From the UHGV virus genome UHGV-0383422: a stretch of 40,660 bases of DNA; one strand, written 5' to 3'. This document shows, piece by piece, positions 10,125 to 29,597 of the stretch (positions are counted from its first letter, which is position 1; each line of letters starts with the position of its first letter). A program made the translations under genes and the position numbers. The notes beneath the pieces were generated by a model that saw nothing but the letters and a program-made list of their open reading frames with translations, ran no database searches and was not told where the DNA came from. Origin of the DNA: a virus.

Positions 10125-10136
10125 GTGACATGTCAC
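10125..10136. repeat. 12-bp perfect palindrome GTGACATGTCAC (copy 1 of 3)
   Basis: Exact palindrome between convergent accessory genes and the ejection operon. Confidence 0.6.
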
Positions 10137-10143
10137 GCTCACG

Positions 10144-10284
10144 TTATGACAAGCCTATGTACCCTGCTACACCAGATAATATCATAATAACTGCAACAGC
10201 AAATTCGCCATCGTCAATGATACATTTACGGTTCATAACGCCAAGTGCAACAAGCGCAAACACAACAAGAATAAAAGCAATCAT
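10144..10284 (-). CDS. small hydrophobic membrane peptide (46 aa)
   Basis: MIAFILVVFALVALGVMNRKCIIDDGEFAVAVIMILSGVAGYIGLS; AAGGATGAG Shine-Dalgarno; just downstream of the 824-aa ejection-protein gene; not in supplied track. Confidence 0.45.
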   Translation of the reverse strand: MIAFILVVFALVALGVMNRKCIIDDGEFAVAVIMILSGVAGYIGLS

Positions 10285-10293
10285 TTCTCATCC

Positions 10294-12768
10294 TTATTGC
10301 GGAGTGACATCCTGTGGTCGCCACCAGTATGTCTGGTTAAACTCTTTCTTCGAACGTTGCTCCATTTTACGCAAATAACCTGGTGAAAAATACTCCTGCA
10401 TCTGGTTAAAGATCATGTGATCGAGAGCCGCCTTCAAGTACCAGAGATTCGCACCTGGCATCAGACCTTTCCCCAGCTTAACCAGATCACCACCAGTCTG
10501 CTCACTCTTCCCTTCCACAGCATTTAACGGTATGCCCTGAGCAATCTTCACTACGTCATCAACCAGACCAGCTACCGGGCCAAGCATCGACGCCAGCGCG
10601 CCGCTTCCGTACCTAGTGTGATCTGACAATAAAAAGTCACCGTAAAGGCCAAGACCACCACCTTTCAGTAGAGCACCAAGCCAAAATTTAGCAGCATCTT
10701 CTCCTGTCATCTCGCGAGGATTACGACCAGACGCAAGGTCGTTAAGTTGCTGCGACAAAGCGCCAAGAATGGTCGTACTGGCAATAAACGTCGCAATATA
10801 TGCCGCACGCCCACCAGCAGACGGCATACCCATAGCGCGTGACCAGTGACGCATAACCACCGAGATAGGGAACGATTTAAACAGGAAAACACTTCTCGTT
10901 AATTCACCTTTCCATGTTCCACGCTGAATACCAGAACCGGTTATCAGTTGCTCACGTGCTCCCGGTGTAATAACAGCCATATCAACTTCTTCAGTTACGG
11001 CACCGAGCAGTTTACGCATTGCCTCAAATTTCACGCGTTCAGGCTCACCAAGATGTTTAACTGCTGAATCAGGGATACGCATAATGCTTTCCGGTGTCAG
11101 CATCGTATTATTACCGTTCCCCCAGTCCTCCTGTTTCGCCAGCTTCCATACGCTCCAGTCTGTGTCAGTAATCCCTTTGCTTTTCAGGATACGAAAATCA
11201 GAGTCATCGAGGCTACGAAGGTCTGGTGTACGTGACACTACTTCTCCCAGGCTTCCCATCATGGTTACGCCATAGGCGCGCTTGTGCGCATCTGACCATG
11301 CTGTAAGCCCACTGGCACGCATTACCGCCGTTGCCGCCCAACGAGACACTGACGGCCCCATATTATCCATCGCCCAGCGGTTAACGCTGCCAAGTAGAGA
11401 TTCCATCGCCAGACCAGCGCGGCGCGCCCGCGCAAGTTCTGTACGGTTCGTTGGGTCCATAGCTTCAAGCTGGTTGCGGAATAACTGGTTCATTGGAAGG
11501 TTGGTAACCTTCGCAGACAGATACATGGTTCCAAGATCAGAGAACGATGACAGCAACGCGGATCCGAGTCTGCTGGCAACCAGCCAGTTGCGGATATTGT
11601 CAGACCATCGCGCGATGTGCGGATTCGCTACAGGCTGTGTCTTTCCGGAAATAAAGTTGTACAGATTCTCTGTGTTGTTCGCCAGCCGCTCGACTTTACC
11701 GGTTTTACTCGGGTTAGCTGTTGCCGTTTCTGCCTTCACCTGATCAAGAAGAGAGCGGAAAACATGATCGGGGTTTGGGCCATATGTTTCCACCAGTGCA
11801 ATATCTTTACTGATACCTTCCAGGTGACCGACCATGATTTCCCATAGAGAGCGATCGCCATAAAGTTGCTGATATTGCAGATAGGAATCTGCATCTTTGA
11901 AATGTATCTGTCGTGATGCATTACCACGGTTAGCACGTGCGCCGGAAATTCGCATTCCGGTATCAGTAAGCTTATTCAGCCCACCAGTAGCGATCGTGTT
12001 ATAAGCCTCTCCAAGAAATGAAGACAACTCGGCATCGTTCATCAGTTGTCCATCGGCTCGGATATAATATTTGCGATCCAGCTTACCTATAACATCGCTA
12101 ACCCACTTATCCTTTGATACTGCCCCAACCTTTTCCATAGAATGATGTTGAGGGATCCCCCAGTTTTCGAGATAGCCAATGTCCCCACCAGCATCATTAA
12201 ACCGGCGGCGCAGCAGCTCTGTAACTTCTCTCCACGCCTTAGCACCGTTTCTTGCTTTAGCATTGCCAGTATTTTGCCCCCGCATTTCATATACCAGGTC
12301 ACGTACGCCCGCTTCATCTTCAAACAGACCAAAAAAGCGAGGATCAACTGCTTCGAATGCCTCCTGCAATTGACTCAATGCATAATCACGGGTGGCTTTT
12401 GTTCTGGATTCAACAGAGAGGAAATTAGATTTACCGTCTGCATTAAAAGCTATAGTACGGTTAAGAGCGCCAAGTTTCCCATCAGCCCCTTGATAGCTAT
12501 TGATAAATTTATCCAATCTCTGACGCGCGGCTATAGTGAGAGCCACACGACGTTTCTTTAATGCCGCTTCTCGCTGTAATTCTTCAGATGCCAATTGTGC
12601 TGCTCGATATAGCCGCTCTGATTCGGAAAGTTGTCTCCACGACATCGGGTCATCACGAGCAATGGAGCGCATATTTCGATAAATGCGGTCTTCAATGTTC
12701 TGTATTTCTCGCGCCGTTAACGTGCGCTGCGCCGCCTGCTGGACCGCTTGTATACATTCCTGTCTCAT
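10294..12768 (-). CDS. internal virion / DNA-ejection protein (large)
   Basis: 824 aa; last of three consecutive large genes at the distal end of the morphogenesis operon. Confidence 0.6.
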   Translation of the reverse strand: MRQECIQAVQQAAQRTLTAREIQNIEDRIYRNMRSIARDDPMSWRQLSESERLYRAAQLASEELQREAALKKRRVALTIAARQRLDKFINSYQGADGKLGALNRTIAFNADGKSNFLSVESRTKATRDYALSQLQEAFEAVDPRFFGLFEDEAGVRDLVYEMRGQNTGNAKARNGAKAWREVTELLRRRFNDAGGDIGYLENWGIPQHHSMEKVGAVSKDKWVSDVIGKLDRKYYIRADGQLMNDAELSSFLGEAYNTIATGGLNKLTDTGMRISGARANRGNASRQIHFKDADSYLQYQQLYGDRSLWEIMVGHLEGISKDIALVETYGPNPDHVFRSLLDQVKAETATANPSKTGKVERLANNTENLYNFISGKTQPVANPHIARWSDNIRNWLVASRLGSALLSSFSDLGTMYLSAKVTNLPMNQLFRNQLEAMDPTNRTELARARRAGLAMESLLGSVNRWAMDNMGPSVSRWAATAVMRASGLTAWSDAHKRAYGVTMMGSLGEVVSRTPDLRSLDDSDFRILKSKGITDTDWSVWKLAKQEDWGNGNNTMLTPESIMRIPDSAVKHLGEPERVKFEAMRKLLGAVTEEVDMAVITPGAREQLITGSGIQRGTWKGELTRSVFLFKSFPISVVMRHWSRAMGMPSAGGRAAYIATFIASTTILGALSQQLNDLASGRNPREMTGEDAAKFWLGALLKGGGLGLYGDFLLSDHTRYGSGALASMLGPVAGLVDDVVKIAQGIPLNAVEGKSEQTGGDLVKLGKGLMPGANLWYLKAALDHMIFNQMQEYFSPGYLRKMEQRSKKEFNQTYWWRPQDVTPQ

Positions 12769-12773
12769 TTAAT

Positions 12774-14576
12774 TTAACCTCTCAAGAAACACGCCACAGC
12801 GACATCAAACAGGCTGGAATCCTGTATTGCCTGCTCACTTTCCCTGTTCGCTTCATCCAGTACTTCACGCGCGCTGCGCGATTGTGGATTACCATCATCA
12901 TCCAGCACGGTGATTATCATGTCCGGATATTCAAGCAGCGAGTCTTCAGCTATACGCAGATCAATATCTCCTGCCGGATCTGCCATCATTTTTTGTTCTG
13001 TCTGTTGCAATATCTTACCGGGATCAAAAGGAGCTACTTCGTCTGGCGTCCTGACCTCTGCTGTTTTATAGAATGAAACAGCCTGAGCATTAAGTTCACT
13101 TTCTGCCTGCTGTCTCCGAGCCAGTTCTGCTCGAGCTTCAAAAAACTGACCGCCAGGCTCATGCGGTGCCAACGCGTTACGGGAAAATTCCAGGCGTTCT
13201 TGTGCCTGCCGGATTCGTTGGTCAATATCCCGAAGTCTGGCCTGTTTATCTGATCGAGCACGAGACAAAGCTTTACCGCTACCGGCTGGATCTTCTGCAA
13301 GAATTTGTGCGCGCTGTTCAGTGAGATTTTCAATAATTCGTTGGCTATTAGCGATTTCAGACTGGTAAACCTGTCTATCGCCACGCGGCAAAAGCTGCGC
13401 GGCCTGTTCTTCAAGCAACCGATTTTCTATAGCGCGCGCCGTTACTCCATCATCTACAGATGACAGAGCCTCATTAACTGCCTGAGACAGCAGACTCTTG
13501 CGTCCAGGAATTTCACTGAAAGATGCAGACTCAACAATGCTGGCAACGTCTACAGGTCTCCCCTGGCTAACATCAGACATGGCTTTTCGCAGAGCCTGAA
13601 TGTGCGAATTACGCGAAAGCACGTTGATCGGCACGCCGGGAGCAATATCAATTTCAGCATGATGAGCGGCATTCGCCGCCAGTGCAGCATCGATATCAAC
13701 TGGTGAAAAATTTGGTGCGCTTGTAGACTCGCCGCGAGAGTTAATAAATCTGCCGACACCACCAAACGCCACCCCAAGAACAGCATCAATAGCAATTGCC
13801 TGTCGATCCAACACATCATACTGGTTAGCCATTTCGCTATAGCCACCATCACGAAGCGTTTTTGCAGTAAGCCCACGCTGTGCCATACCGAACGCAATAT
13901 TTGTACCTGCGGCATAGGCAATATCTGGCGTTGCACGTACTGCTGTTGCTGCGGCGCGTCGCACTGAACTTTCACCCGTCCGCGCAAGCTGAGCCGCCAC
14001 ACCTTCCGCCAGCGCACCACCAGCACGTAACCCGAGGCTCATAGGGATCAGTGTTCCGGCACCAGCAGTAATACCCTGCACTAATCCCGCTTCCTGCGCC
14101 GTCCTGAAATCAACACCCTGTGCTGTAAGCCGTTCAAACTCAGAAAAACCCTGTAGAGAAGTTACCGCCGCAGCACCTCCGACCGGACCACCGAGCGTTG
14201 TACCGACAACAGCCTGCCCGCCCATATCGAACAACCCATAAAGGACCTGCCCGGCGGTTCCGGTTGTCGCGGCATCAGGCGTCAGCCGCTTAACCTGCTG
14301 CTCTGCTAGTTTTCTCTGCTCAGCAATGTATGAAACTGAAGTGTCATTGATCGAGGTGTTTTCGTTAACAAACTGAGCAATCGGGGATACGATTTTATCC
14401 ATCCCTGCCCATAGCAACTGATCTGGCTTTGCCACCAGCCCGGAGTACAAACCAGACAATGCCGCTCCTACAGCATTGTCGAAAAAACCAACATCGCTGT
14501 TAAAGCCAGCTGGATTTGATGCTGCTTCGTCAAGCTGCTGATTCTGGTTTACTGGATTAAGGCCAAAGTAACTCAT
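12774..14576 (-). CDS. internal virion / DNA-ejection protein
   Basis: 600 aa, Ala/Gly-rich; position in structural operon. Confidence 0.55.
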   Translation of the reverse strand: MSYFGLNPVNQNQQLDEAASNPAGFNSDVGFFDNAVGAALSGLYSGLVAKPDQLLWAGMDKIVSPIAQFVNENTSINDTSVSYIAEQRKLAEQQVKRLTPDAATTGTAGQVLYGLFDMGGQAVVGTTLGGPVGGAAAVTSLQGFSEFERLTAQGVDFRTAQEAGLVQGITAGAGTLIPMSLGLRAGGALAEGVAAQLARTGESSVRRAAATAVRATPDIAYAAGTNIAFGMAQRGLTAKTLRDGGYSEMANQYDVLDRQAIAIDAVLGVAFGGVGRFINSRGESTSAPNFSPVDIDAALAANAAHHAEIDIAPGVPINVLSRNSHIQALRKAMSDVSQGRPVDVASIVESASFSEIPGRKSLLSQAVNEALSSVDDGVTARAIENRLLEEQAAQLLPRGDRQVYQSEIANSQRIIENLTEQRAQILAEDPAGSGKALSRARSDKQARLRDIDQRIRQAQERLEFSRNALAPHEPGGQFFEARAELARRQQAESELNAQAVSFYKTAEVRTPDEVAPFDPGKILQQTEQKMMADPAGDIDLRIAEDSLLEYPDMIITVLDDDGNPQSRSAREVLDEANRESEQAIQDSSLFDVAVACFLRG

Positions 14577-17086
14577 TGCGGAATATCTCCGGAGAATCTC
14601 TGACGCTTCTGTGTCAGATTAAGAACAACGGGAGAACCATCATCTTTCAGCAGATAACCAGTACCAAGTTTCACCAGGTACTGACTATCGCCGTAACTTT
14701 GCAAACCATACTGACCAGGCGGTGTTTTTATCCCGGAGCCGACAACTTGTTCATTCCAAGCCTGATTAACCTGCTTATCGAATTGCTCTGCAGACATTCC
14801 CCACGGCAAAAGGACATTCCCCATTCCGTTATAGTCATGCACGCCACCTGTAGCTACGTTAACAGCCTGTTTCCAGACATCATTGTCAATTTCGCCTGAT
14901 ACCACGCCTTTTTTCGCCATCACACCAGCGTAATAATCCTTTGCGATCTCGTATGCCATTGATGCGCCCTGAGCGTCACCAGCAAATGCATCCTTCACCA
15001 TGTCAGAAAACTCAAGGCGAAGATCAGCATCTTTAGGCATCGGAATACCTTTCGCATCATCAGTACCTTTACGAGCCGCCGCGCCAGCAAGAATTGTCTG
15101 CGCAGCGGTTTCAGGAGACACGGAAACATCCGGATTAAACCAGTTTTTTTCTGCCAAAATACCACCAGGCTTATCCATCAGTATCCCGGCAACGGCAGCA
15201 GATGGAGCGTTGGCACTGATCTGCTGTAGTGCTGACATATACACCTGCCCACCACCAGTGCTCTGCCTGATGGTATCGAGATATGCTGCCTGTTGGGAAA
15301 CTGGAGCATCACGAAAGAAAACACCGATCTGATTGGCCTCGTCTTTGGAAAAGAACGTCAGTGGAGTGCCATATGACTTAGCAAGGTCACTGACCTGAGC
15401 GGCACGCAAGGCAACGCTCTGTCCAAAGTTATCCTTATTGCTCATGTCGATAGGCTTTGCCTGTCGGGAGGCAAGAGAGAACTGCACAGGATCCGACTGC
15501 CGCTGCTTTATCACCTGATTTGCAGCCGAAACAACGTTGTCATAAAGAGTTGCGCGTGCCGCATACCCCTCCCCTGTATCACCAGTATCCGGGCGTAATT
15601 GCTCAACATATGCTGTAATGCTGCTTGTCGGCATGTTGCGGAAAGAGCCTATATACTGTCCGGCGATCTGCGTATTCTTAAACTCGGTATATCGCAGGTT
15701 TCCTTCTCTGACTCCATAAGCTGCAATAAAATCATCCTCACCAGGTGGGTTAGGAAATTCAATGCCACGCATATACGCAGCCGTCGCATCGCGAACCCGG
15801 CTGTCGAGCATCGTTTTATATTCAGCCTGCTGTTGTCTGGCTAGTGCATCAGTCTGTCGCAACACGCTGGCCTGATCTGATTCACTTAAAGCATCGAACC
15901 AGGCTACACCGGTATAACGTTTATTTTTTGTCGGTAGCTGAGAAAGCCCCAGCGCAGCACTAACACCTGCAGTTAACTGCTGATCACTGTATGGCTGGCT
16001 ACCGTTTTCATGATGGATAATGGCTGCACAAAGCGCCTTCAGGGTATCAGGATTTGATGCATCGAGAGGCTCATCAGCAGAAACGCCAAGTTGTTCGCAC
16101 ACTGCTTTGATATACGACATAGTGTCATTTTTATCAGTAGGCGGTGCCCAGCGATTAATTATCTCGCTGACGGTATCAATACCCTGCCGCTGATACGACA
16201 TCAGGTTCCGCCCTAATGCACGAATACCGTGTTCAGGGGTTTCGAATTTGGCAAAGCGACCATCATCACCAGTCTGCCCAACCCACGGATTAGTTTTGCT
16301 GTATTCAAGATTGCCGGGGTTATTGTTGCGTATACCGCGGGTACGATCGGAAGAGCCACTATCTGCTACAGCACGGCGAGAACCAGCAGCAGTATCGCTT
16401 AACTCGCCGTTTTGCTGTCTTACCTGAAGATAGTTTGCTCCAATAGCATTTTGAGCAGTTGCTTTTGCTGTTGCTTCTTTAAACTCGATTTTCTTGGCCT
16501 GGATTTGCTCGTCACTCCAGCCATGTGCAATGCCGTAATCCTCAATTTGCTGGAAAGTTTGCTTATTAGCCAATACGTATGCGGCGTTGTCGCCATACAA
16601 TGCTGCGGCATTTTTACCATTGTTCAGCAGCGTAGCCTGAAACTGGCCTTCTTCGTAGGCATTTATTTGCCCTATCTCGTGCCGCCCGGCCTGCGTAGTG
16701 AACTGAATGCGCTGCTGCTGCGCCTGCTGCATGAAAGCATTACGAGCCTGTTCATCCGGCAGCGACATAGCCAGTTGTTCGACCTGAGCATCAAACTGCT
16801 GCGTATACTCCTGACCTTTTCCAATAGCATTTTTCCCTTTCAGGTTAAGCAAACCTGTTTCAGGGTTATTCAGCAGATCGCTGCTTATCTGGCTTAAGCT
16901 AAGAGAAGCATCCTGAGCCATAGCAACATTCGCACGCTGTTTTGCCTGCGCAATAATACCTGCATATTGCTCTGCAACATCGCCAAGTACATCACCGACA
17001 TTTGGTGTCTGAAACGATGAGAATCCCTGCGTCGAAATCCCTCTGCTCTGAACCTGACGGCCCGATGTTGTTGGTACAACTGGCAT
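14573..17086 (-). CDS. internal virion / DNA-ejection protein (large)
   Basis: 837 aa; Gln/Ala-rich coiled regions; position in structural operon; any cell-wall-hydrolase domain is unverified. Confidence 0.55.
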   Translation of the reverse strand: MPVVPTTSGRQVQSRGISTQGFSSFQTPNVGDVLGDVAEQYAGIIAQAKQRANVAMAQDASLSLSQISSDLLNNPETGLLNLKGKNAIGKGQEYTQQFDAQVEQLAMSLPDEQARNAFMQQAQQQRIQFTTQAGRHEIGQINAYEEGQFQATLLNNGKNAAALYGDNAAYVLANKQTFQQIEDYGIAHGWSDEQIQAKKIEFKEATAKATAQNAIGANYLQVRQQNGELSDTAAGSRRAVADSGSSDRTRGIRNNNPGNLEYSKTNPWVGQTGDDGRFAKFETPEHGIRALGRNLMSYQRQGIDTVSEIINRWAPPTDKNDTMSYIKAVCEQLGVSADEPLDASNPDTLKALCAAIIHHENGSQPYSDQQLTAGVSAALGLSQLPTKNKRYTGVAWFDALSESDQASVLRQTDALARQQQAEYKTMLDSRVRDATAAYMRGIEFPNPPGEDDFIAAYGVREGNLRYTEFKNTQIAGQYIGSFRNMPTSSITAYVEQLRPDTGDTGEGYAARATLYDNVVSAANQVIKQRQSDPVQFSLASRQAKPIDMSNKDNFGQSVALRAAQVSDLAKSYGTPLTFFSKDEANQIGVFFRDAPVSQQAAYLDTIRQSTGGGQVYMSALQQISANAPSAAVAGILMDKPGGILAEKNWFNPDVSVSPETAAQTILAGAAARKGTDDAKGIPMPKDADLRLEFSDMVKDAFAGDAQGASMAYEIAKDYYAGVMAKKGVVSGEIDNDVWKQAVNVATGGVHDYNGMGNVLLPWGMSAEQFDKQVNQAWNEQVVGSGIKTPPGQYGLQSYGDSQYLVKLGTGYLLKDDGSPVVLNLTQKRQRFSGDIPQ

Positions 17087-17098
17087 CTTATTATCCCC

Positions 17099-22335: not shown

Positions 22336-22350
22336 CTTCTTTCTCCATTA

Positions 22351-22370: not shown

Positions 22371-22386
22371 AGGTTAATAACAGGCG

Positions 22387-23379
22387 TTACACCACGCGGG
22401 CTTCTGTTTCCAGAAGCGCATCAGTTTCACGGATTGGTACACCACGGAATGAAGTCCACCACTCGCCTTCTGTCTCTTTTACGCTGATAGCCAGAGATGT
22501 TTTCTCCAGAGACTGCAGATCAAGAGCCTGGCCTACAGTGCGGTTCATGTAGAACACCGGGCGGCCCATGCCACGGTTTGGAATGCGATGTAGTGCTTTA
22601 ACCATCAACTTCGCAATATTTGCGGCAGAGGATGGTTCTGAAAGATTGCTGACATCGATGTTTGCAATGCGAACAACATAACGCCAGTCACGCAGAGCAA
22701 GTCCGTTATCCCATTTGTAATGGGTGCGATAGCCTTCGTACTTGCCGCCATTAGCATCTTCCAGTGTCACCTGGCCTTTATCTTCCATCTGGATGCCAGC
22801 CTTCTGCCCTTTCGGGAAGATGCCATGCACGGTGTTTTCGCCCCACACCACTAACCAGATTGAGGTGTTATCTGTACCCGTGCCACCAGCATCAATGATG
22901 TTCTGAGCATTACCCGCAGACAGGCTGGAATAGCGGGAGGACAGTCCCATAAACTGCTGAGGGTTAACGCTGGAATCACCATAAAACAGCGTCTGCGCCA
23001 TCTGCTGATTCATCGCTTCAATAAATGCGCGGTCTTCAGACAGGCGGAATTCGGCGGTATTGCCGTTCAGATCAGCCAGTGACTTATCGACTTCCGCATA
23101 GGTTTCCAGCATGCCAACGGAATCGGTTACCTGCACTGTGGTTGATTTGCTTGGCTGTACGCCATAGTTCAGCAAACGCCAGGTAGCTGAAGGTAAACCA
23201 GAACGAATGGTGGTTCGGTGTCCGGTAGGAAGGTTCCCTTCGACAAAAGGCATATCCTGAAGGATCGGGTTAGTTTGACCGAGAAGCTCGATAATCTTAT
23301 CGACTTTCCCGTTTGGATCGACGCGCTTACCCCAGTCAGCCAGCGTTAGCGCAGTTAAGCCTTTAACAGCCATTGTCAT
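22387..23379 (-). CDS. major capsid protein
   Basis: 330 aa; directly after the scaffolding gene. Confidence 0.75.
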   Translation of the reverse strand: MTMAVKGLTALTLADWGKRVDPNGKVDKIIELLGQTNPILQDMPFVEGNLPTGHRTTIRSGLPSATWRLLNYGVQPSKSTTVQVTDSVGMLETYAEVDKSLADLNGNTAEFRLSEDRAFIEAMNQQMAQTLFYGDSSVNPQQFMGLSSRYSSLSAGNAQNIIDAGGTGTDNTSIWLVVWGENTVHGIFPKGQKAGIQMEDKGQVTLEDANGGKYEGYRTHYKWDNGLALRDWRYVVRIANIDVSNLSEPSSAANIAKLMVKALHRIPNRGMGRPVFYMNRTVGQALDLQSLEKTSLAISVKETEGEWWTSFRGVPIRETDALLETEARVV

Positions 23380-23387
23380 TTCCTCTC

Positions 23388-24089
23388 TTATTTGCCATAG
23401 AGCACTTCGGCCGCACTACGCTGGCCTTCATTACCACCGGTGACCATGCCATCTTCAGACATCGCCTTTCCGATTTTCACGAACGTTTTGACCAGATCAG
23501 GGTGATTACCCAGCCCGGTGGTGTTCAGATATTCTTTGAGTTCAGGTGTCCCGAACTGGTCAAGCGCACGCTGTGCGGCGCTAAGGTTAGAAATCAACTT
23601 GTCGCCACCGATTTCTTTGTCGGCTTTTACATCCGCAGCCCACTGCTCGGTTGTTTTCTGCCAGGCTTCTGCCTGGCGCTGCTGAACACCTGCCAGAATC
23701 TTCGGATAAGCATCAACCAGCTTTTGCGCTTGCTCGTTGGTCAGGTTTAGTTCTCGCGCCACCGGCTCGAATTCCTTCAACGCTTCTGTATCCAGCTCTA
23801 CGCCTTCGGCAGCCTGAAACTCGTACTTTTCAGGCGCACCCTCTGGTTTATCGCCGTCCTTTTTTTCATCCTGCTTATCGTTTTCAGGCTTTTTGTCATC
23901 AGCAGGTTTATCGCCATCAGCAACAGGTTGTGGCTTATCACCTTCCTGTTGTGATGGATCACCAACTGGAGCAGGGTTATCACCTGCAGGCGCTGACGGT
24001 TCTGACGCAGCCGGAGCTGCTCCACCATCGACTGGTTGCTCATTGCAAAGACGGCGATACAGCAAACGCTCAAATAAATTCATGATCAC
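23388..24089 (-). CDS. head scaffolding protein
   Basis: 233 aa; Pro/Asp/Lys-rich acidic low-complexity N-terminal half; between portal and capsid. Confidence 0.7.
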   Translation of the reverse strand: MIMNLFERLLYRRLCNEQPVDGGAAPAASEPSAPAGDNPAPVGDPSQQEGDKPQPVADGDKPADDKKPENDKQDEKKDGDKPEGAPEKYEFQAAEGVELDTEALKEFEPVARELNLTNEQAQKLVDAYPKILAGVQQRQAEAWQKTTEQWAADVKADKEIGGDKLISNLSAAQRALDQFGTPELKEYLNTTGLGNHPDLVKTFVKIGKAMSEDGMVTGGNEGQRSAAEVLYGK

Positions 24090-24382
24090 TCCTGTTCACT
24101 GGCCTCTTTGGCCATCTTCAAATACTGTTCAGGGCAATGCGCCATAACGCGCTGAAACAGTTCCAGCGCCAGATTGCGTTGCCCCTCATTAAATGCCATT
24201 GCCATAGCATCCATCGGAGAGATAGCGGAAAACACCCGGCCTTTCTCCAGCACCGACCAGACAACGCGACGCCCCTGTTCACTGCTCATGACAAAGCGAA
24301 TGTCATCAATTTCACGCTGTGCCATGTCACGTTGCTTACGGGCGTTTTCTTCTTTCAGTTGATCGTCTTCGAAATCTGTCAT
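24086..24382 (-). CDS. hypothetical head-morphogenesis protein
   Basis: 98 aa; coupled between portal and scaffold. Confidence 0.5.
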   Translation of the reverse strand: MTDFEDDQLKEENARKQRDMAQREIDDIRFVMSSEQGRRVVWSVLEKGRVFSAISPMDAMAMAFNEGQRNLALELFQRVMAHCPEQYLKMAKEASEQE

Positions 24383-26058
24383 TGTGATTGCCCACCCTGA
24401 CCACTAACTGCATTCGCCATAGCTGACAAAACACTCGGATCCGAAGTTTTAGCTTCGCTTAGCGTCTTGGCACCCTGTGCCGCCGCCATCCCCATCGCCA
24501 TCATTTGTTGCTGCTGTTGTTGCTGTGCCCGTTGCTGGCGAGCCTGCTCAACCTGTTCCTGCGGAACAATGACGGTTGGAGACACTCCGGACATATCAGC
24601 GAATGCATCGATCGCCTGATCAACGTTGAGTTTGTCGAGAGCTTCTGGTTTCGCTTGCGCAAGTTGACCAATGAAGTTAACCGTGGACGCCAGACTGGAC
24701 AGGCCGATAGACTTCTGCGCCTGAGCCATGACGGAAATGTATTCGACCTTCAGGGGCATGCCTTCCATCGCGTCAGGCGGTGTCGGCAGCATGTTTTTAC
24801 GCACCATCATCGAGAAAGCGCGGTCAATGAGAGGATTAAGACATTCGTCGTTCAGACGCTCCAGAACCGGCCCCAACATCAGAAGTTTTTCTTCTTTCAT
24901 TTCGATCACCGCTTCAACAGGCATCGAGCGGGTATTGATGTTCTGCAACATCATGAACAGATCGACAAAGTAGGCGCTGTTAATGATTTGACGGGTGTCC
25001 TGAATGTCTGCCACCAAATCTGCTGTACTGGGGTTAACCAGATAAGCAGGCCTGAAACCATCCTGACCAGTAATCTGATCGATATACGTGATGTCGCCAG
25101 GAAGAAGGGAGGCACGCTGATTCTTGAGGGAAGTCGGAGCAACCATCGGCGGATTGGTGGCTTTATCAATCAACTGCGACTTGCGCTTCTGGAGAAGCTG
25201 CAATGCCTTAACAGGTCCAAGCGCCAGCATACCCGGGCATGATGATCCATAAACATCTTCGCCGTTAACTTCCCAGCGCGGAGCCATAATTGGAAACTCA
25301 TCGAATCCGGACTCACGCAACAACTTGTCGTTATCGCCACCAACCTCGTAATAAACCGATTTGAATGGCTTGTTCTTGCTATCCAGCTTCGATGTATCGC
25401 GGTCAATGTTCGGGTAAACCGAATGCATCACTTCAATCCACTTCTCGTAGGTGCCGCTTTCCCACATGCTTTTTACGGATTCGCTGACGTTATTTAGCCC
25501 GAACTCCTGAACAAGCTGACGAACAGTCATAGAGAACTTGCGAAAACAGGTGTCCACACTGCCACGAGGTGAGTTAGCCAGGTAGTAACTGCCTATCGGG
25601 AATGGCATTGTGCGAATGATGTCCTCGTCATCCTCCAGCACCGCCATTGCACCAGTGCTGTATGTGCCGAGGCTTCCGTATAACTGCGGAAGAGACTGGT
25701 AGAGATTCGACTTATTGAACATATCGTTCATGCGGTTCTGAACTGCCTCAAGCCACAACTTAACAGGGCCATAGTCCATCATTTCAGGATCTGGCGTAGC
25801 CAGGCGAAACCACGGACGGGCGGGGCTTGTTATGCCTGACATCATGCCGCTGGCAAGAGTGCGCGCCGCCATAGTCCCGGTCGAATCAATAATGCGTGTA
25901 TTGCGTCGATCGTTACGGTTAACCTCAGAAGTCAGAAAGCGGGAACCACGCGGGTTGATGTAATCACTCAACTCGCGCCAGTGCGGCTCGAACGACTGAC
26001 GCTCGCTTTCAAGTTGTGCGAACTGTTTGTTCAATCGCTCTTTAGTTGTTTCCGCCAT
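24379..26058 (-). CDS. portal protein
   Basis: 559 aa; poly-Gln/Ala C-terminal tail; position next to terminase and scaffold. Confidence 0.8.
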   Translation of the reverse strand: MAETTKERLNKQFAQLESERQSFEPHWRELSDYINPRGSRFLTSEVNRNDRRNTRIIDSTGTMAARTLASGMMSGITSPARPWFRLATPDPEMMDYGPVKLWLEAVQNRMNDMFNKSNLYQSLPQLYGSLGTYSTGAMAVLEDDEDIIRTMPFPIGSYYLANSPRGSVDTCFRKFSMTVRQLVQEFGLNNVSESVKSMWESGTYEKWIEVMHSVYPNIDRDTSKLDSKNKPFKSVYYEVGGDNDKLLRESGFDEFPIMAPRWEVNGEDVYGSSCPGMLALGPVKALQLLQKRKSQLIDKATNPPMVAPTSLKNQRASLLPGDITYIDQITGQDGFRPAYLVNPSTADLVADIQDTRQIINSAYFVDLFMMLQNINTRSMPVEAVIEMKEEKLLMLGPVLERLNDECLNPLIDRAFSMMVRKNMLPTPPDAMEGMPLKVEYISVMAQAQKSIGLSSLASTVNFIGQLAQAKPEALDKLNVDQAIDAFADMSGVSPTVIVPQEQVEQARQQRAQQQQQQQMMAMGMAAAQGAKTLSEAKTSDPSVLSAMANAVSGQGGQSQ

Positions 26059-26072
26059 TTCAATGACTCCGG

Positions 26073-26279
26073 TTACTGACCAAGCAGCGTTTTACCGCTG
26101 GTATTAGCGGTTGATGTGTCGCCCTGAGAACCGGTAAGCAGCGTAGAACTACGACCAGCAGCAGCGCGACGGCGACGAGTTTCTTCGTCGCGGGCATCAA
26201 CAACGGCGGCATCCTGCTCCTGTGGTGCTGCCTGAACTTCTGGTGTTGCAGGCACTGATGGTGAGCTACCCATGCACAT
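26073..26279 (-). CDS. hypothetical small protein upstream of portal
   Basis: 68 aa, low complexity; shares the GGAGTCATTGA ribosome-binding segment with the portal gene. Confidence 0.4.
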   Translation of the reverse strand: MCMGSSPSVPATPEVQAAPQEQDAAVVDARDEETRRRRAAAGRSSTLLTGSQGDTSTANTSGKTLLGQ

Positions 26280-26367
26280 ATCAATGACTCCGTACGCAAT
26301 TAAATTATTACCAATTTAACCATATATGATTTATTTATCGTAGGTAGTTGACATTTAACGCACAAAT

Positions 26368-26384
26368 TATTACCTTTCAGGTAA
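26368..26384. promoter_or_regulatory. operator-like palindrome ATTACCT-TTC-AGGTAAC
   Basis: Dispersed motif family member, in the terminase-portal accessory island. Confidence 0.45.
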
Positions 26385-26706
26385 CCAAAGAGTTCATTCC
26401 GGTTACTAACCTGACTGGCTTGTCGTTAAATTGAACAGGTGGAGTGAGCTTTTATTTTGAGCAGTACGGCGTATGGCACATGCGCCGATAGCGGTCTGGA
26501 TACGTTTAAGGGGCACCCTCCCTTGCTCGGGCAAACGAACCAGGTAGCCGGAATGTGCAAGTCGAGCGGTTTTATTCCGCGCACGGGGATTCACCATCCC
26601 GGCGATTCGGTGTGACGCCTCGGAAGAGACGAGGGTACAACGATGAGAGCATTTATGGAGCCGCGACAAAGTGTGGCGCCTTAACAGGCTAAGTGCTCTC
26701 AGCGTT

Positions 26707-26783
26707 GTGGCATTAGCTCAGTTGGACAGAGCAACCGCCTTCTAAGCGGTTGGTCGCAGGTTCGAATCCTGCATGCCACGCCA
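26707..26783 (+). tRNA. tRNA-Arg (anticodon UCU)
   Basis: Folded by hand: acceptor GTGGCAT/ATGCCAC, D-arm GCTC/GAGC, anticodon stem ACCGC/GCGGT with loop CTTCTAA (anticodon TCT), T-arm GCAGG-TTCGAAT-CCTGC, discriminator G and CCA. Confidence 0.9.
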
Positions 26784-26826
26784 GAATCACGCCTAAGGAC
26801 CGTGATGCCAGAAGTTCCAGGTGCTT

Positions 26827-26868
26827 GGCGGTGATGGTTTCCCTTGAAGGACTATCACCGCCCTTTTT
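26827..26868 (+). terminator. hairpin terminator downstream of tRNA
   Basis: Stem GGCGGTGAT/ATCACCGCC followed by CTTTTT. Confidence 0.55.
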
Positions 26869-26946
26869 ACAGCAGGACGCCATTGCGATGACTTCATGCT
26901 GTAAACCAGTACAGCCACGGAAGGCATAACTCATTGCTTCCAGTTC

Positions 26947-26971
26947 GCCCGGTTCGTCCGGGCATTTTTTT
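26947..26971 (+). terminator. rho-independent terminator
   Basis: Stem GCCCGG/CCGGGC with TTCGT loop followed by ATTTTTTT; next ATG only 13 nt downstream. Confidence 0.65.
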
Positions 26972-26983
26972 AAGGTGAAAATC

Positions 26984-27316
26984 ATGAAAGAGAAGACTGC
27001 AGCTGAGCGCTATGCCGCAGCTATCAATGCCGCGATGGCGATTGTAAACCTGCGTGAAGAGATTAAAGATCTCCTTGCAATTATCCATAACAACCTGACA
27101 TGTACAGAGTTGCTTGGCGGTCAGTACAACGGTGAGGCGGTGAAGGAGGCATTTAAAAATGCCGAGGTAGGAATAATTCCAGCAAACTATGTCAAGGCTG
27201 AATGTGTGCTCCTAAAGGCACGAGTGAGTCTGCATGAAGATCCTGGTAATCTCGGTCGAACTGCAATGCGTTACGTGATAGACGAGTCGAATGCCAAACA
27301 CAATCTACCGAAATAA
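26984..27316 (+). CDS. hypothetical protein (110 aa), accessory gene
   Basis: ATG at 26984 with AAGGTGA Shine-Dalgarno; convergent with large terminase; palindrome copy just after the stop. Confidence 0.55.
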   Translation: MKEKTAAERYAAAINAAMAIVNLREEIKDLLAIIHNNLTCTELLGGQYNGEAVKEAFKNAEVGIIPANYVKAECVLLKARVSLHEDPGNLGRTAMRYVIDESNAKHNLPK

Positions 27317-27320
27317 CACC

Positions 27321-27332
27321 GTGACATGTCAC
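27321..27332. repeat. 12-bp perfect palindrome GTGACATGTCAC (copy 2 of 3)
   Basis: Exact palindrome four nt after the stop of 26984-27316. Confidence 0.6.
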
Positions 27333-27406
27333 AAACAGACAGCCTATGAGCTGGCTTTGTTTTATCCTCACCAGAGGATATCAACGACATTATCCCCACC
27401 AGCGGA

Positions 27407-28882
27407 TTAAGCATAGGGATCGTAATCTGTGATGGCCTTGCCTTGCTGGTTCTGCTGACCGGGAATTCGCAGACGCTTCGACACAGGGAACGCAAACGTC
27501 AGCAGTAGCGCATCGCCTTTACCAGGAGAACGCCCAAGTCGCTCTTTGATATCTTCCTTCGGTTCGATAACGATTTTACCGTCCACTCGAACTTTGTACT
27601 CTGCTGCCGACAGGTCGTCCGCTGTTTCCTGGTCATCCAGCATGCCGCCCAGCCTCAGCCATGTCTTGCATGAATTGAACATCTCCCCACGCTTGTTGAG
27701 CATCTGCGGGTCAGTAGACGCGCCACCGAACGGAACAAGTTGCCATGTACGACCCCATCCGTCACCGATTGACTTCAGACCGGTTCCGTAACCGAAGTCG
27801 ATGAACACCGCGTCAGCCTGATACTGGTCTTCAAAGTCAGCGATACGCTTCGCCATAATCAGATCGTCGGTAGTCTTGTTGCCAGTCCACAGCACCTTAC
27901 TGTGTAGCCCCTGCCGCAGGTATATCACCGCGTCATCAACGCCTGAATATGCCGGGTCAACACCGATTATCACCGGAGCATGCGCCACCTGCGCAGCGGT
28001 TACCACCCGTTTCATTGCCTCATCAGTAAGACCGGTAGGGATAAACTGCAATTCAGATGCATCAGGGAATATGCCGCGCACACGGATTTTAACGAAGTCG
28101 CTGTCTTCCCCGTAGTCATCAACCCATTTCTGCAACTGCTGTTTGTTAGTGCCTTCCACCGTTCGGCTGTCAATCTGCGCAGTTTTCCAGCGGTGTTTAT
28201 ATTTGCGGAAACATTCGCGGAAACGTCCGGTATTACGCGTCGGGTTTCCGAACGCCACCCAGATAATCTCAGTGTCTTCGTCCGTTAGTGCACCCTCGGC
28301 AACTTCCCACACCAGATCCGCAATGTTCGACGCTTCATCGAATACCACGATGATGCGTTTGCGCTCGTTGTGTAGTCCGGCGAATGCCTCAGTGTTGTGC
28401 TCAGACCAGGGGATTGCGTCAGCTCGCCACCGCTTGTCGTGTCCAGGATCATTGCTGTACATCGCGGTAGCGGTACAGGTAAACCAGTCTTTCGTGATAG
28501 CAAGGTTCGACCACTTGATAATTTCCGGCCAGGTCTTCGTTCGTAGCTGGTTGTCGGTGTTGGCGGTCACCACGACCTTACAATCCTCGCAAGTGGACAT
28601 GCCCCAGTTGATCAGCATTGAGATGAATGCGGATTTACCAATACCGTGACCCGAAGCACGTGCCAGCATAAGCGGCTGATAGCGCGTCTCTGGATTCTGC
28701 AGGTGATCACGTATCTCTCGGAACGCATCAGCCTGCCACTGACGTGGGCCGGTAGCATGTGCCAGTTCAGTCCCCTCTTCCCCCCACGGGAACGCATAGA
28801 GGGCATAGCCAAGCGGATCGTGAGTGAACCCTGCAATATCCTCGATCAACTGCTCTTCAGGAGATAACGCTGTATCTGTCAC
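27407..28882 (-). CDS. terminase large subunit
   Basis: 491 aa; Walker A-like ASGHGIGKS; acidic nuclease-region motifs; coupled to small subunit. Confidence 0.85.
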   Translation of the reverse strand: MTDTALSPEEQLIEDIAGFTHDPLGYALYAFPWGEEGTELAHATGPRQWQADAFREIRDHLQNPETRYQPLMLARASGHGIGKSAFISMLINWGMSTCEDCKVVVTANTDNQLRTKTWPEIIKWSNLAITKDWFTCTATAMYSNDPGHDKRWRADAIPWSEHNTEAFAGLHNERKRIIVVFDEASNIADLVWEVAEGALTDEDTEIIWVAFGNPTRNTGRFRECFRKYKHRWKTAQIDSRTVEGTNKQQLQKWVDDYGEDSDFVKIRVRGIFPDASELQFIPTGLTDEAMKRVVTAAQVAHAPVIIGVDPAYSGVDDAVIYLRQGLHSKVLWTGNKTTDDLIMAKRIADFEDQYQADAVFIDFGYGTGLKSIGDGWGRTWQLVPFGGASTDPQMLNKRGEMFNSCKTWLRLGGMLDDQETADDLSAAEYKVRVDGKIVIEPKEDIKERLGRSPGKGDALLLTFAFPVSKRLRIPGQQNQQGKAITDYDPYA

Positions 28883-29553
28883 TGATTACCATCCTGACGT
28901 TCTTTGAGTCGCTTCCTGGCTGCTGCTATGCGATCAGCAATTGTCACATTCACATTAACATCCAGACGTTCTTTGAACGCGTTGACATCAACATGCTTAC
29001 CAATCAGCTCAAGGTTCTTCACCTTGTCAGGCCATTTAATTTTTTTGAGGATTGTCTCTATCGAATCCTCGTTCATGTTCATGATGGTCGATGACAGATC
29101 AAAGCCACTAAGCGTAGTGCGCCAGATTTTCGGCCACTCACGGATTGGTTTAAGGCTCCCATCGTCGTTGAGGATGTCGATCACGTCCATCTGGTCGATC
29201 TCCACCAGGCGCATGAGAACGTAATCAGCACTGACGCGCATTCGTTTGTTGCGCTCCTCCATCAACTCGGCAATCCGTTTTTGAATGCGTTCATCGCGCA
29301 TCATGACACTGGCTTTAACTGCCGCTGTATTTGGGGAGAATCCTGCGTTAATCGCTGCCTGAGTCTGGTTTTCAGGCGTTTTGATGTATGACTGGCAATA
29401 AGCCTCCTGCATTGCTGTTAGTGGCTTAAATTGCGTTGATTTGCGTTTATAGGTTTTAGGTTCAGCAGGCATCATAACCACCGTGGTAATAGTTACCGTT
29501 GTGGTAATAGTACCATGCAAAATAAAGCCGCCATAGTTGGCGGCAGTATTCAA
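28879..29553 (-). CDS. terminase small subunit
   Basis: 224 aa; N-terminal HTH-like region (AMQEAYCQSYIKTPENQTQAAINAGFSPNTAAVKA); likelier start may be the internal MM at 29475, as the listed N-terminus is encoded by a direct-repeat region. Confidence 0.8.
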   Translation of the reverse strand: MNTAANYGGFILHGTITTTVTITTVVMMPAEPKTYKRKSTQFKPLTAMQEAYCQSYIKTPENQTQAAINAGFSPNTAAVKASVMMRDERIQKRIAELMEERNKRMRVSADYVLMRLVEIDQMDVIDILNDDGSLKPIREWPKIWRTTLSGFDLSSTIMNMNEDSIETILKKIKWPDKVKNLELIGKHVDVNAFKERLDVNVNVTIADRIAAARKRLKERQDGNQ

Positions 29554-29585
29554 AACCCATCAAATTCATCATGCATAATCTACTC

Positions 29586-29597
29586 GTGACATGTCAC
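29586..29597. repeat. 12-bp perfect palindrome GTGACATGTCAC (copy 3 of 3)
   Basis: Exact palindrome between the upstream gene stop and the small-terminase start region. Confidence 0.6.

What the first reader, a model, noticed from the sequence alone, without database searches (positions are those of the whole stretch)
10125..29597. Three exact copies of the 12-bp palindrome GTGACATGTCAC at module boundaries
GTGACATGTCAC occurs at 10125-10136, 27321-27332 and 29586-29597. A specific 12-mer is expected about 0.005 times in 40 kb, so three perfect copies are not chance. Each lies within a few bases of a stop codon where an accessory cassette meets the structural operon: after the secreted-peptide gene, after the 26984-27316 gene facing large terminase, and just upstream of small terminase. 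No T-run follows, so they are not classical terminators. Candidates are a protein-binding site (late-gene regulator, packaging or insulator factor) or a recombination signpost for accessory-gene insertion.
Basis: seen in the sequence. Interest (0 to 1): 0.5.

Follow-up and report, generated by a model that had tools for sequence, protein, structure and literature searches.

The report
Conserved phage palindrome, likely regulator site
Three exact copies of a 12-base palindrome in this epsilon15-like phage are real and conserved across related phages, and they are most likely the DNA docking sites of a small uncharacterised regulatory protein whose own gene ends inside one of the copies.

Summary
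GTGACATGTCAC occurs exactly three times (0.0024 expected). The same 12-mer sits at the same three places in epsilon15, SPC32H and Tyrion, and at two of them (third copy one mismatch) in phiV10, although these genomes are only about 80% identical.

Each copy lies at the 3' end of one of three same-strand operons (early-right, terminase, structural), 1 to 42 nt from an intrinsic terminator.

The copy at 29586-29597 contains the TGA stop of a 112-aa gene (29594-29932, minus strand; epsilon15 gp49 / N15 gp46 family). Its model has a ribbon-helix-helix fold plus a Cys-rich tail.

In 27 of 35 loci retrieved without reference to the motif, a GTGAC-N2-GTCAC dyad lies at that gene's stop. These include N15, a Serratia Mu-like prophage and a Pseudomonas element.

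Structural-module relatives that carry a Q antiterminator instead of this gene have no copies.

Best reading: these are operators of this protein, acting on transcription at operon junctions. Binding and the direction of the effect are untested.

The half-sites equal those of host matS, but the spacer is 2 bp, not 3. Homology between relatives often breaks at the palindromes. I found no description of the motif. Interest is moderate.

The parts
29586..29597 (.). Palindrome copy C (GTGACATGTCAC). On the minus strand its bases 2-4 are the TGA stop of the gp49-family gene. It lies at the end of the early-right operon and upstream of TerS.
   Evidence: The same arrangement is found in epsilon15, SPC32H, Tyrion, BUCT711 and in 24 of 35 surveyed loci.
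27321..27332 (.). Palindrome copy A, between the convergent TerL (minus) and accessory gene 26975-27316 (plus).
   Evidence: The syntenic copy after TerL is present in epsilon15 (2142), phiV10 (2262), SPC32H (2145), Tyrion (2702) and 2.5-2.9 kb beyond copy C in many IMG/VR loci.
10125..10136 (.). Palindrome copy B, between the last structural-operon gene (10144-10284, minus) and the plus-strand antirepressor/moron operon ending at 10101.
   Evidence: Syntenic copies: epsilon15 19517, phiV10 19493, SPC32H 19634, Tyrion 20377, BUCT711 18526.
29594..29932 (-). Gene for the proposed binding protein (112 aa; epsilon15 gp49 / N15 gp46 family; PHROG 536). It has a basic N-terminal helix, a ribbon-helix-helix core and a C-terminal Cys-rich zinc-ribbon-like tail.
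29518..29544 (-). Intrinsic terminator (GCCGCCaactatGGCGGC plus TTTATTTT), 42 nt downstream of copy C and upstream of TerS.
27340..27363 (.). Bidirectional terminator-like hairpin (CAGCctatgaGCTG, extended stem). It has a T-run on the plus strand, and on the minus strand TCTGTTT running into copy A.
   Evidence: The equivalent hairpin sits next to copy A in epsilon15, phiV10, SPC32H and Tyrion.
10099..10124 (-). Intrinsic terminator (AGGCCGCtttcGCGGCCT plus TGTTTTT) starting 1 nt after copy B on the minus strand; this is the end of the structural operon.
   Evidence: Annotated as a terminator at the same place in phiV10 and epsilon15.
28879..29475 (-). Small terminase gene. The true start is ATGATG at about 29475, not the TTG at 29553. 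It is the first gene of the operon that ends at copy A.
   Evidence: alignment with epsilon15 TerS, MPAEPK....
29474..29508 (.). Two repressor-operator-like sites (ATTACC-N5-GGTAAT, one mismatch each) between the terminator and the TerS start. This is a different motif from the palindrome.
   Evidence: Epsilon15 carries an annotated repressor site at the equivalent place.
24319..24330 (.). One-mismatch copy (GTGCCATGTCAC) inside a coding region; probably chance or coding conservation, not counted as a site.
   Evidence: The same 1-mismatch copy is at the homologous place in phiV10 (5306).

Best explanation
The three palindromes are cis-acting DNA sites of the form GTGAC-N2-GTCAC. I propose they are recognised by a dimer of the phage's own small ribbon-helix-helix / zinc-ribbon protein (window 29594-29932, minus strand; epsilon15 gp49 / N15 gp46 family).

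One site is built into the stop codon of that protein's gene, at the end of the early-right operon. The other two lie at the ends of the terminase operon and the structural operon. Each is beside an intrinsic terminator.

I infer that the bound protein acts on RNA polymerase at these operon junctions. It would set whether transcription stops or continues from the early-right operon into the packaging and structural genes, and it would insulate the oppositely oriented accessory genes.

What is shown: the motif, its conservation, its positions, its link to the gene, and the protein's fold. What is inferred: that the protein binds the motif. What is unknown: the direction of the effect. It could be read-through (Q-like gate) or a block (roadblock or autoregulation in the style of the LacI O3 operator).

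Because the short element is conserved while its flanks are swapped, it also coincides with mosaic junctions.
For: 1. Three exact copies against 0.0024 expected.

2. The identical 12-mer is at the same three syntenic places in epsilon15, SPC32H and Tyrion, in phiV10 (two exact, the third with one mismatch), and at two of them in Klebsiella phage BUCT711. These genomes are about 80% identical in DNA and the flanks differ.

3. Gene-site linkage. Thirty-five evaluable loci were retrieved by protein similarity or as whole genomes of relatives, not by the motif. In 27 of them an exact GTGAC-N2-GTCAC lies within -36 to +8 nt of the homologue's stop; in 24 the TGA is inside the motif. Chance is about 1e-4 per locus (details).

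4. The linkage survives at 35-50% protein identity and in other virion types.
- N15, gene 46: GTGACTGGTCAC at the stop, plus two further copies of the same 12-mer.
- A Serratia Mu-like prophage.
- A 63% GC Pseudomonas element.
The half-sites and the 2-bp spacer are constant; the central dinucleotide varies (AT, AG, TG, CG, GC, GT, CC).

5. The 8 bases after the stop are non-coding, so coding constraint cannot explain their conservation.

6. Natural contrast. Pseudomonas phages Ab31 and Flu_PA14_3 share the terminase and structural module but carry a Q antiterminator in place of this gene. They have no copies.

8. Position. Repressor-operator-like sites mark the starts of three co-directional minus-strand operons, and each operon ends at a palindrome plus terminator.

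9. In lambda-like relatives the gene is the last early gene. A sigma-70-like promoter plus two terminators follow, and then the lysis and late genes.
Against:
- Eight of the 35 loci lack an exact dyad at the gene's end, although one of them has a one-mismatch copy there and several of the others have copies elsewhere.
- N15 has a separate Q-like gene 40, so this family is not simply 'the Q' of these phages.
- In one common variant, copy C is followed after 9 nt by the TerS start codon, with no promoter or terminator. A promoter-element role cannot be general.
- The distance from the dyad to the late promoter differs by 18 bp between two lambda-like relatives. This argues against a fixed-geometry activator.
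- The family is found mainly in Enterobacterales and Vibrionales, the taxa that also have MatP. Host range alone therefore does not exclude a host factor.
- Many of the surveyed loci are close relatives, so the counts overstate the number of independent events.
Confidence: 0.55

Rival explanations
1. The sites are matS-like sites bound by the host protein MatP. This would tie phage DNA to the Ter/divisome machinery or unload MukBEF from it.
For: The half-sites GTGAC/GTCAC are identical to matS, GTGAC[AG]N[CT]GTCAC (PMC3603311). MatP is itself a ribbon-helix-helix protein and unloads MukBEF at matS (PMC8669397). Most hosts of the gene family are Enterobacterales or Vibrionales, which have MatP.
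Against: - The spacer is 2 bp, not 3, at every site in every lineage. No 13-bp matS is present in any of these phages.
- The motif is tied to the stop codon of a phage gene, which a host factor does not explain.
- It occurs with that gene in a Pseudomonas element. That Pseudomonas lacks MatP is my background knowledge, not tested here.
- Prophages avoid matS. These phages integrate at guaA (PMC9782041), which by my background knowledge lies outside Ter, so functional MatP sites there should be counter-selected. This last step is inference.
Confidence: 0.07
2. The palindrome is bound by another protein, not gp49: another phage early protein, or a host transcription factor shared by these hosts.
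For: Binding was not tested. The neighbouring gene (29925-30194, the epsilon15 gp48 position) is also uncharacterised. Conservation alone does not name the binder.
Against: Across epsilon15-like, N15, Mu-like and lambda-like phage-plasmid genomes, the gp49/gp46 homologue is the only gene I saw consistently next to the dyad; the neighbouring genes differ. A packaging (TerS/pac) role is excluded by the different terminases and by the Mu-like context.
Confidence: 0.15
3. There is no dedicated binder. The 12-mer is part of a portable terminator/linker module. It is conserved because it serves as short homology for RecET-type module exchange, and it supplies a TGA stop in both directions.
For: - Homology between relatives often ends 1-4 nt beyond the palindrome. 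The bin holding copy C is the second-richest breakpoint bin in the window.
- At copy B one conserved core (terminator hairpin, T, palindrome, G) is joined to at least six different right flanks and two left flanks.
- The phage encodes RecT and an exonuclease.
- Short-homology exchange among temperate phages is documented (PMC3945230, listed).
Against: A passive linker would drift. Here 10 of 12 positions are invariant from Pseudomonas to E. coli elements, while the adjacent hairpins vary freely. Twelve bases is very short for homology-driven exchange. The strict 2-bp spacer and the free central dinucleotide are the signature of recognition by a dimeric protein. Breakpoints next to any constrained element are expected anyway. 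The locus sample was partly selected for containing the motif.
Confidence: 0.1
4. The element acts in RNA, as a small hairpin upstream of the terminators that serves as a processing, stability or antitermination signal.
For: In at least one transcript at each site the palindrome is transcribed just before a terminator hairpin.
Against: The hairpin is only 4 bp with a 4-nt loop, -1.2 kcal/mol, no better than shuffles. There are no compensatory changes: both arms are invariant. The element is symmetric on both strands. Rfam finds nothing at these places.
Confidence: 0.04

Closest known systems
matS / MatP (Ter macrodomain organiser of E. coli and relatives)
   Different: The spacer is 2 bp, not 3. 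There is no sequence homology between the proteins (hhalign probability 0.3%). The phage protein lacks MatP's four-helix bundle and coiled coil and has a Cys-rich tail instead. The sites are in a phage, at operon ends, not in Ter.
Lambda Q and its binding site at the late promoter (Q/qut late-gene antitermination)
   Same: A small regulator gene is the last gene of the early-right operon. Its DNA site lies immediately downstream of the gene and ahead of the late genes. A promoter-like element and a terminator lie between site and late genes in this window, in epsilon15 and in the Pseudomonas relative. Structural-module relatives carry Q where these phages carry this gene.
   Different: There is no similarity to any Q family. 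The site overlaps the stop codon rather than lying inside a promoter. Extra copies lie at operon ends. One common variant has neither promoter nor terminator after the site. N15 has both a Q-like gene and this gene.
Ribbon-helix-helix repressors with short dyad operators (Arc, Mnt, CopG, MetJ, antitoxins)
   Same: Fold of the proposed binder. The target is a short dyad of about 12 bp.
   Different: Those operators lie at promoters and are usually tandem or multiple sub-sites. Here single dyads lie at 3' ends of genes and operons next to terminators, and the protein carries an extra zinc-ribbon-like tail.
lacI 3' end / O3 operator (roadblock that truncates the regulator's own mRNA; recalled from memory, Abo et al. 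2000)
   Same: The regulator's binding site overlaps the 3' end of its own gene. A bound protein could stall RNA polymerase before the stop codon and so limit its own synthesis and downstream read-through.
   Different: This is purely an analogy. No evidence here for roadblocking or tmRNA tagging.
DksA/TraR C4 zinc-finger RNA-polymerase-binding proteins
   Same: Residues 46-106 align with TraR residues 5-65: a helix followed by CxxCG..P...G..C (PDB profile E 0.06; hhalign probability 72%).
   Different: None of 50 family members reaches the Pfam zf-dskA_traR model. The last CxxC is altered. The helix that enters the polymerase channel in TraR is here part of the ribbon-helix-helix core.

Membership tests
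matS (MatP binding site) | 13-bp consensus GTGAC-RNY-GTCAC | tested here: not met
   All copies have a 2-bp spacer. No GTGAC-N3-GTCAC occurs in the window or in epsilon15, phiV10, SPC32H, Tyrion or BUCT711. Consensus taken from PMC3603311.
matS (MatP binding site) | Occurs only in hosts that encode MatP, concentrated in the Ter macrodomain | tested here: not met
   The motif, together with its linked gene, is present in a Pseudomonas fluorescens-group contig of 63% GC. That Pseudomonas lacks MatP is background knowledge. Epsilon15-like phages integrate at guaA (PMC9782041); that guaA lies outside Ter is background knowledge.
matS (MatP binding site) | Bound by MatP | not testable with these tools
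   Needs gel shift or ChIP.
Operator of a ribbon-helix-helix regulator | Partner protein has the ribbon-helix-helix fold | tested here: met
Operator of a ribbon-helix-helix regulator | Short dyad-symmetric DNA site that co-occurs with the regulator gene | tested here: met
   In 27 of 35 loci the dyad is at the gene's stop. There are zero copies in relatives lacking the gene.
Operator of a ribbon-helix-helix regulator | Direct sequence-specific binding | not testable with these tools
   No protein-DNA modelling or experiment was available.
Intrinsic (rho-independent) terminator | Stable GC-rich hairpin followed by a T-run | tested here: not met
   The 12-mer itself folds at -1.2 kcal/mol and has no T-run. 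The adjacent hairpins at 10107-10124, 27340-27353 and 29527-29544 do meet the definition.
Q-type late antitermination (Q plus its site) | Protein belongs to a known Q family | tested here: not met
   No Pfam hit. N15 encodes a separate Q-like protein.
Q-type late antitermination (Q plus its site) | Regulator gene, its DNA site, a promoter and a terminator lie in that order ahead of the late genes | tested here: inconclusive
   The order is present in the window (weak promoter GTGACA-18-CATGAT, terminator 29544-29527), in epsilon15 and in L154. It is absent in the variant where TerS starts 9 nt after the site.
DksA/TraR zinc-finger family | C4 zinc finger matching zf-dskA_traR | tested here: inconclusive
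   PDB profile hits to TraR and YbiI at E about 0.06. hhalign probability 72% over 59 columns. No Pfam PF01258 hit in any of 50 members.

The most novel reading that the evidence does not exclude
The gp49/gp46-family protein is a new class of DNA-loaded transcription elongation factor. A ribbon-helix-helix dimer waits on GTGAC-N2-GTCAC dyads placed inside transcribed DNA at operon ends, beginning with its own stop codon. It engages passing RNA polymerase through its TraR-like zinc-ribbon tail, making polymerase read through (or stop at) the adjacent terminators. This would be a Q-like late switch built from unrelated parts. A second, less likely novel reading: the 12-bp dyad is a one-base-short matS mimic through which the phage protein or host MatP interferes with MukBEF or Ter organisation.
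Probability: 0.2. Interest if true: 0.8.

Novelty: new variant of a known kind. Interest (0 to 1): 0.55.

Why it matters
Epsilon15-like phages (Uetakevirus) are structural models and are used as reporter phages for E. coli O157 and Salmonella. I found no Q-family or other known late regulator among the proteins I scanned, nor in the annotated records of epsilon15, phiV10, SPC32H, Tyrion and BUCT711.

This analysis pairs an uncharacterised protein family with a precise DNA motif. The family is conserved across podoviruses, N15-type linear plasmid prophages, lambda-like phage-plasmids and Mu-like prophages. That gives a directly testable handle on how these phages join or separate their operons.

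The motif also marks where modules are exchanged, which is useful for engineering and for reading mosaicism. Its near-identity to host matS, one base short, raises a testable question: do phages avoid, or exploit, the host chromosome-organising system?

Tried and rejected
- Repressor operator: rejected. The epsilon15 record annotates repressor sites at roughly comparable places, but they are ATTACC-N4/5-GGTAAT, a different motif that is also present in the window.
- CRP, LacI-type or SlmA sites (recalled consensus sequences): spacing and sequence do not fit. Not pursued.
- pac or packaging signal: rejected. There are three copies, and the motif occurs in phages with other terminases and, in a Mu-like prophage, far from the terminase genes.
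- RNA hairpin: rejected.
- bZIP-like recognition of TGAC by the basic N-terminal helix: considered, then dropped, because the Ala-Ala signature is not conserved in the family.
- Sequence homology to MatP: none.
- Literature: no paper holds the 12-mer. Searches on ribbon-helix-helix plus late genes, and on GTGAC/GTCAC plus phage, returned nothing. The one 'gp46' mention uses another phage's numbering.
- A genome-contig scan with the Pseudomonas homologue found nothing.
- A 12-mer cannot be scanned in the public collections; 14 specified bases are needed. I used TGTGACATGTCACG instead, so that set is biased towards one flank variant. About 40% of its hits were coding coincidences in unrelated conserved genes or GTGAC-repeat arrays.
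- The search of a host-flank protein of L129 showed only that this Mu-like prophage is in Serratia, a MatP host, so it did not help against the MatP rival.
- Not tested: how often the 12-mer occurs in host chromosomes outside prophages.
Full report
**1. The observation**

GTGACATGTCAC occurs at 10125-10136, 27321-27332 and 29586-29597 and nowhere else on either strand. None of 100 dinucleotide-preserving shuffles produced a single copy. From base composition the expected number is 0.0024 and P(>=3) is about 2e-9. With up to two mismatches only one more copy appears (24319, inside a coding region), which is within chance.

**2. What the window is**

The window is a complete or nearly complete epsilon15-like podovirus genome (genus Uetakevirus). 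Its closest relatives are E. coli phages phiv142-3, HEMP4, ZX5 and phiV10. It is about 81% identical in DNA to Salmonella phage epsilon15 over the terminase region.

Late genes lie on the minus strand:
- TerS, 28879 to about 29475
- TerL, 27407-28882
- portal, 24379-26058
- the rest of the structural operon, down to a 46-aa membrane protein at 10144-10284

**3. Conservation**

The identical 12-mer is at the same three syntenic places in the following genomes:
- epsilon15: 2142, 19517, 39612
- SPC32H: 2145, 19634, 38629
- Tyrion: 2702, 20377, 41755
- phiV10: 2262 and 19493; the third copy spans the record ends with one mismatch

BUCT711 from Klebsiella has it at two of the three places, plus one copy inside a gene. 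The flanks differ between these genomes while the 12 bases do not.

Pseudomonas phages Ab31 and Flu_PA14_3 share the terminase, portal and structural module (TerL 53-65% identical). They have no GTGAC-N(0-6)-GTCAC at all.

The sites that the epsilon15 record annotates as repressor operators are a different motif, ATTACC-N4/5-GGTAAT. That motif is also present in the window at twelve places.

**4. Local anatomy**

Each palindrome is next to an intrinsic terminator.
- On the minus strand, copy B is followed after 1 nt by AGGCCGCtttcGCGGCCT plus TGTTTTT (10124-10107).
- Copy C is followed after 42 nt by GCCGCCaactatGGCGGC plus TTTATTTT (29544-29527).
- Copy A is 7 nt from a bidirectional hairpin at 27340-27353.

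Equivalent hairpins accompany the copies in the relatives.

The 12-mer itself is not a terminator. As RNA it folds at only -1.2 kcal/mol, no better than shuffles.

Repressor-operator-like sites lie upstream of TerS (29474, 29492), upstream of the structural operon (26369) and at the early promoters (35940, 36652, 36714). Read together with the epsilon15 annotation, the minus strand carries three consecutive operons: early-right, TerS-TerL and structural. Each ends at a palindrome plus terminator. This operon structure is inferred from sequence, not from transcript data.

**5. The partner gene**

Copy C contains the TGA stop of a 112-aa open reading frame (29594-29932, minus strand). Only the last base of its last sense codon and the stop lie in the motif. 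The remaining 8 bases are non-coding.

The protein is the homologue of epsilon15 gp49, which the record describes as 'similar to N15 gp46'. It has no Pfam family. It matches PHROG 536, 'transcriptional regulator' (E 6e-54).

A search of 1.84 billion cluster representatives found 150 clusters. Their alignment shows three features:
- a basic N-terminal helix with invariant R8
- a beta-alpha-alpha core
- a Cys-rich C-terminus with invariant C79 and C82, and C99 nearly invariant

The C-terminal half aligns weakly with TraR and YbiI, which are DksA/TraR zinc-finger proteins that bind RNA polymerase (PDB profile E 0.06; hhalign probability 72%). No family member reaches the Pfam model for that finger. 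I treat this as a lead only.

**6. Gene-site linkage across lineages**

The 14-mer scan of IMG/VR first showed the pattern: the palindrome follows the gp49 homologue even in contigs without epsilon15-like terminase or portal genes.

A survey that did not depend on the motif used loci retrieved by protein similarity or as whole genomes of relatives. It gave 35 evaluable loci.
- 27 have an exact GTGAC-N2-GTCAC within -36 to +8 nt of the homologue's stop.
- In 24 of these the TGA stop is inside the motif.
- One more locus has a single mismatch.
- Chance is about 1e-4 per locus.

The linkage holds in distant members:
- P0207 (35% identical): GTGACAGGTCAC at the stop.
- P0182, in a Mu-like prophage just upstream of gemA and mor: GTGACCGGTCAC, 36 nt before the stop. 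Its host is Serratia.
- P0191, on a 63% GC contig from a Pseudomonas fluorescens-group strain: GTGACTGGTCAC at the stop, and a second dyad elsewhere in the locus.
- N15 gene 46: GTGACTGGTCAC at the stop. The same 12-mer recurs at 28550, between the end of the repA operon and the promoter of the isrK/C4-antirepressor operon, and at 33237, inside repA.

A Serratia phage-plasmid lacks the dyad at the stop but has two GTGACGCGTCAC copies 23 bp apart, between convergent genes 2.1 kb downstream.

The half-sites and the 2-bp spacer are constant throughout, while the central pair varies. This pattern fits a protein dimer reading two half-sites. It does not fit an RNA stem, because there are no compensatory changes.

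Many of the 35 loci are close relatives. The independent events are the four or five lineages just listed.

**7. What it probably does**

Shown:
- a conserved dyad
- its link to a ribbon-helix-helix protein gene
- its placement at gene and operon 3' ends next to terminators

Inferred: the protein binds the dyad.

The function must then concern what lies downstream of the gene:
- TerS and the late operons, in epsilon15-like phages
- a sigma-70-like promoter (TTGACA-17-TATCTT) followed by two terminators and the lysis/late genes, in the Pseudomonas element
- gemA-mor, in the Mu-like prophage

Relatives with the same structural genes carry a Q antiterminator at the corresponding genome position and no dyads. 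I therefore favour a role in controlling the passage of RNA polymerase across operon junctions.

I cannot tell which of two versions applies.
- (a) The protein promotes read-through, as a Q-like gate, possibly re-engaging polymerase at each copy.
- (b) The protein blocks polymerase. That would reinforce the neighbouring terminators in both directions, insulate the convergent accessory genes, and limit its own mRNA in the way LacI does at O3 (an analogy recalled from memory).

Points against a simple Q equivalence:
- N15 also has a Q-like gene.
- A common variant has the TerS start 9 nt after copy C, with no promoter or terminator.
- The dyad-to-promoter distance differs by 18 bp between two lambda-like relatives.

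In the window and in epsilon15, the first six bases of copy C (GTGACA) can be read as a -35 element: 18 nt before CATGAT here and 17 nt before TAAATT in epsilon15 (my reading of the sequence). This is not general.

**8. The matS resemblance**

Host matS is GTGAC[AG]N[CT]GTCAC, 13 bp. It is bound by the ribbon-helix-helix protein MatP, and prophages avoid it (PMC3603311). The phage dyad has the same half-sites with one base fewer between them.

I rate binding by host MatP as unlikely, for these reasons:
- No 13-bp matS occurs in any of these phages.
- The phage protein shows no sequence homology to MatP.
- The dyad is present with its gene in Pseudomonas. That Pseudomonas has no MatP is my background knowledge.
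- Three functional MatP sites in a prophage at guaA (integration site from PMC9782041) should be selected against. This is inference.

It is not excluded. Most hosts of the family do have MatP.

**9. Module boundaries**

At copy B, a conserved core (terminator hairpin, T, palindrome, G) is joined to at least six unrelated right flanks and two left flanks in different phages. At copy C the conserved gene end is joined to at least five different downstream arrangements:
- a terminator
- a direct TerS start
- a LexA-box promoter
- other hairpins
- other genes

These are listed.

In BLAST comparisons of the window with the fetched loci, high-scoring pairs end 1-4 nt beyond the palindromes. The 60-nt bin holding copy C is the second-richest breakpoint bin of the whole window.

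I read it as a consequence of a constrained element flanked by exchangeable cargo, not as proof of a recombination function. Part of the locus sample was selected for containing the motif.

**10. Novelty and verdict**

No paper in the searchable library contains the 12-mer. The epsilon15, phiV10, SPC32H, Tyrion and N15 records annotate nothing at these positions. Sources name the protein family 'hypothetical' or give it only a generic 'transcriptional regulator' label.

The kind of thing, a phage regulator with a dyad operator, is well known. Four features are unusual:
- the operator sits inside the regulator's own stop codon
- the other copies sit at operon ends beside terminators
- the half-sites equal those of matS
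- a ribbon-helix-helix core is combined with a zinc-ribbon-like tail

I classify it as a new variant of a known kind, of moderate interest. There is about a one-in-five chance that it is a new type of DNA-loaded elongation or termination factor.

Noticed in passing
window 8176-8252 and 8277-8360 (+): Rfam matches to isrK (Hfq-binding sRNA, 67.7 bits) and C4 antisense RNA (66 bits), just upstream of the 241-aa gene and the Bro-N antirepressor (9266-9847). This is a P1/N15-type antisense-RNA immunity module for the antirepressor. N15 has the same pair downstream of its second dyad (L159 4302-4490, minus strand).
   Followed up: partly
window 6911, 8031, 8124, 9191, 26369, 29474, 29492, 33597, 33659, 35940, 36652, 36714: Twelve ATTACC-N5-GGTAAT sites (0-1 mismatch), the motif that epsilon15 annotates as repressor operators. 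They lie upstream of TerS, the structural operon, the tailspike/ant region and the early promoters. This suggests the repressor directly controls the late operons.
   Followed up: partly
window 26707-26783 (+): tRNA-Arg (anticodon TCT) in the accessory region between the portal-side genes and copy A, opposite in orientation to the late genes.
   Followed up: yes
L136, L137, L143-L149, L153 (about 10350-10410); also L009, L027, L038, L010: In Klebsiella-type relatives, copy C is followed by a strong promoter (TTGACT ... TATACT) overlapped by a near-perfect LexA box (TACTGTTTAAATATACAGTA). An SOS-controlled gene is therefore inserted between the gp49 homologue and TerS.
   Followed up: no
L154 10450-10660; L128 10435-10553: In lambda-like phage-plasmid relatives, the gp49 homologue is followed by a sigma-70-like promoter, a conserved leader hairpin (GTGGTG...CGCCAC) and one or two terminators before the holin gene. 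This is a PR'/tR'-like late leader with no recognisable Q gene nearby.
   Followed up: partly
L026, L045, L055, L060, L074, L112 (IMG/VR contigs): Arrays of closely spaced GTGAC(A/G)/GTCAC repeats (iteron-like) surround the 14-mer in unrelated viral contigs. This may be a different protein that reads the same half-site.
   Followed up: no
L014, L019, L024, L076, L117, L126: The 14-mer also occurs as codons 2-5 (M-R-D-M-S-Q...) at the start of a conserved gene. From memory, that N-terminus resembles a Q-type antiterminator of lambdoid phages. I take it as a coding coincidence, and it shows that not every copy of the 12-mer is a site.
   Followed up: no
window 28879-29553 (-): The long TTG-initiated TerS reading frame, as annotated in phiV10, runs through the terminator hairpin and the operator-like sites. 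Alignment with epsilon15 TerS puts the real start at ATGATG, about 29475.
   Followed up: yes
L005 (BUCT711) 26462 and 23066: This Klebsiella relative lacks the copy after TerL. It has an exact copy inside a 156-aa structural-region gene and a GTGACGTGTCAC inside the 601-aa gene. The significance is unknown.
   Followed up: no
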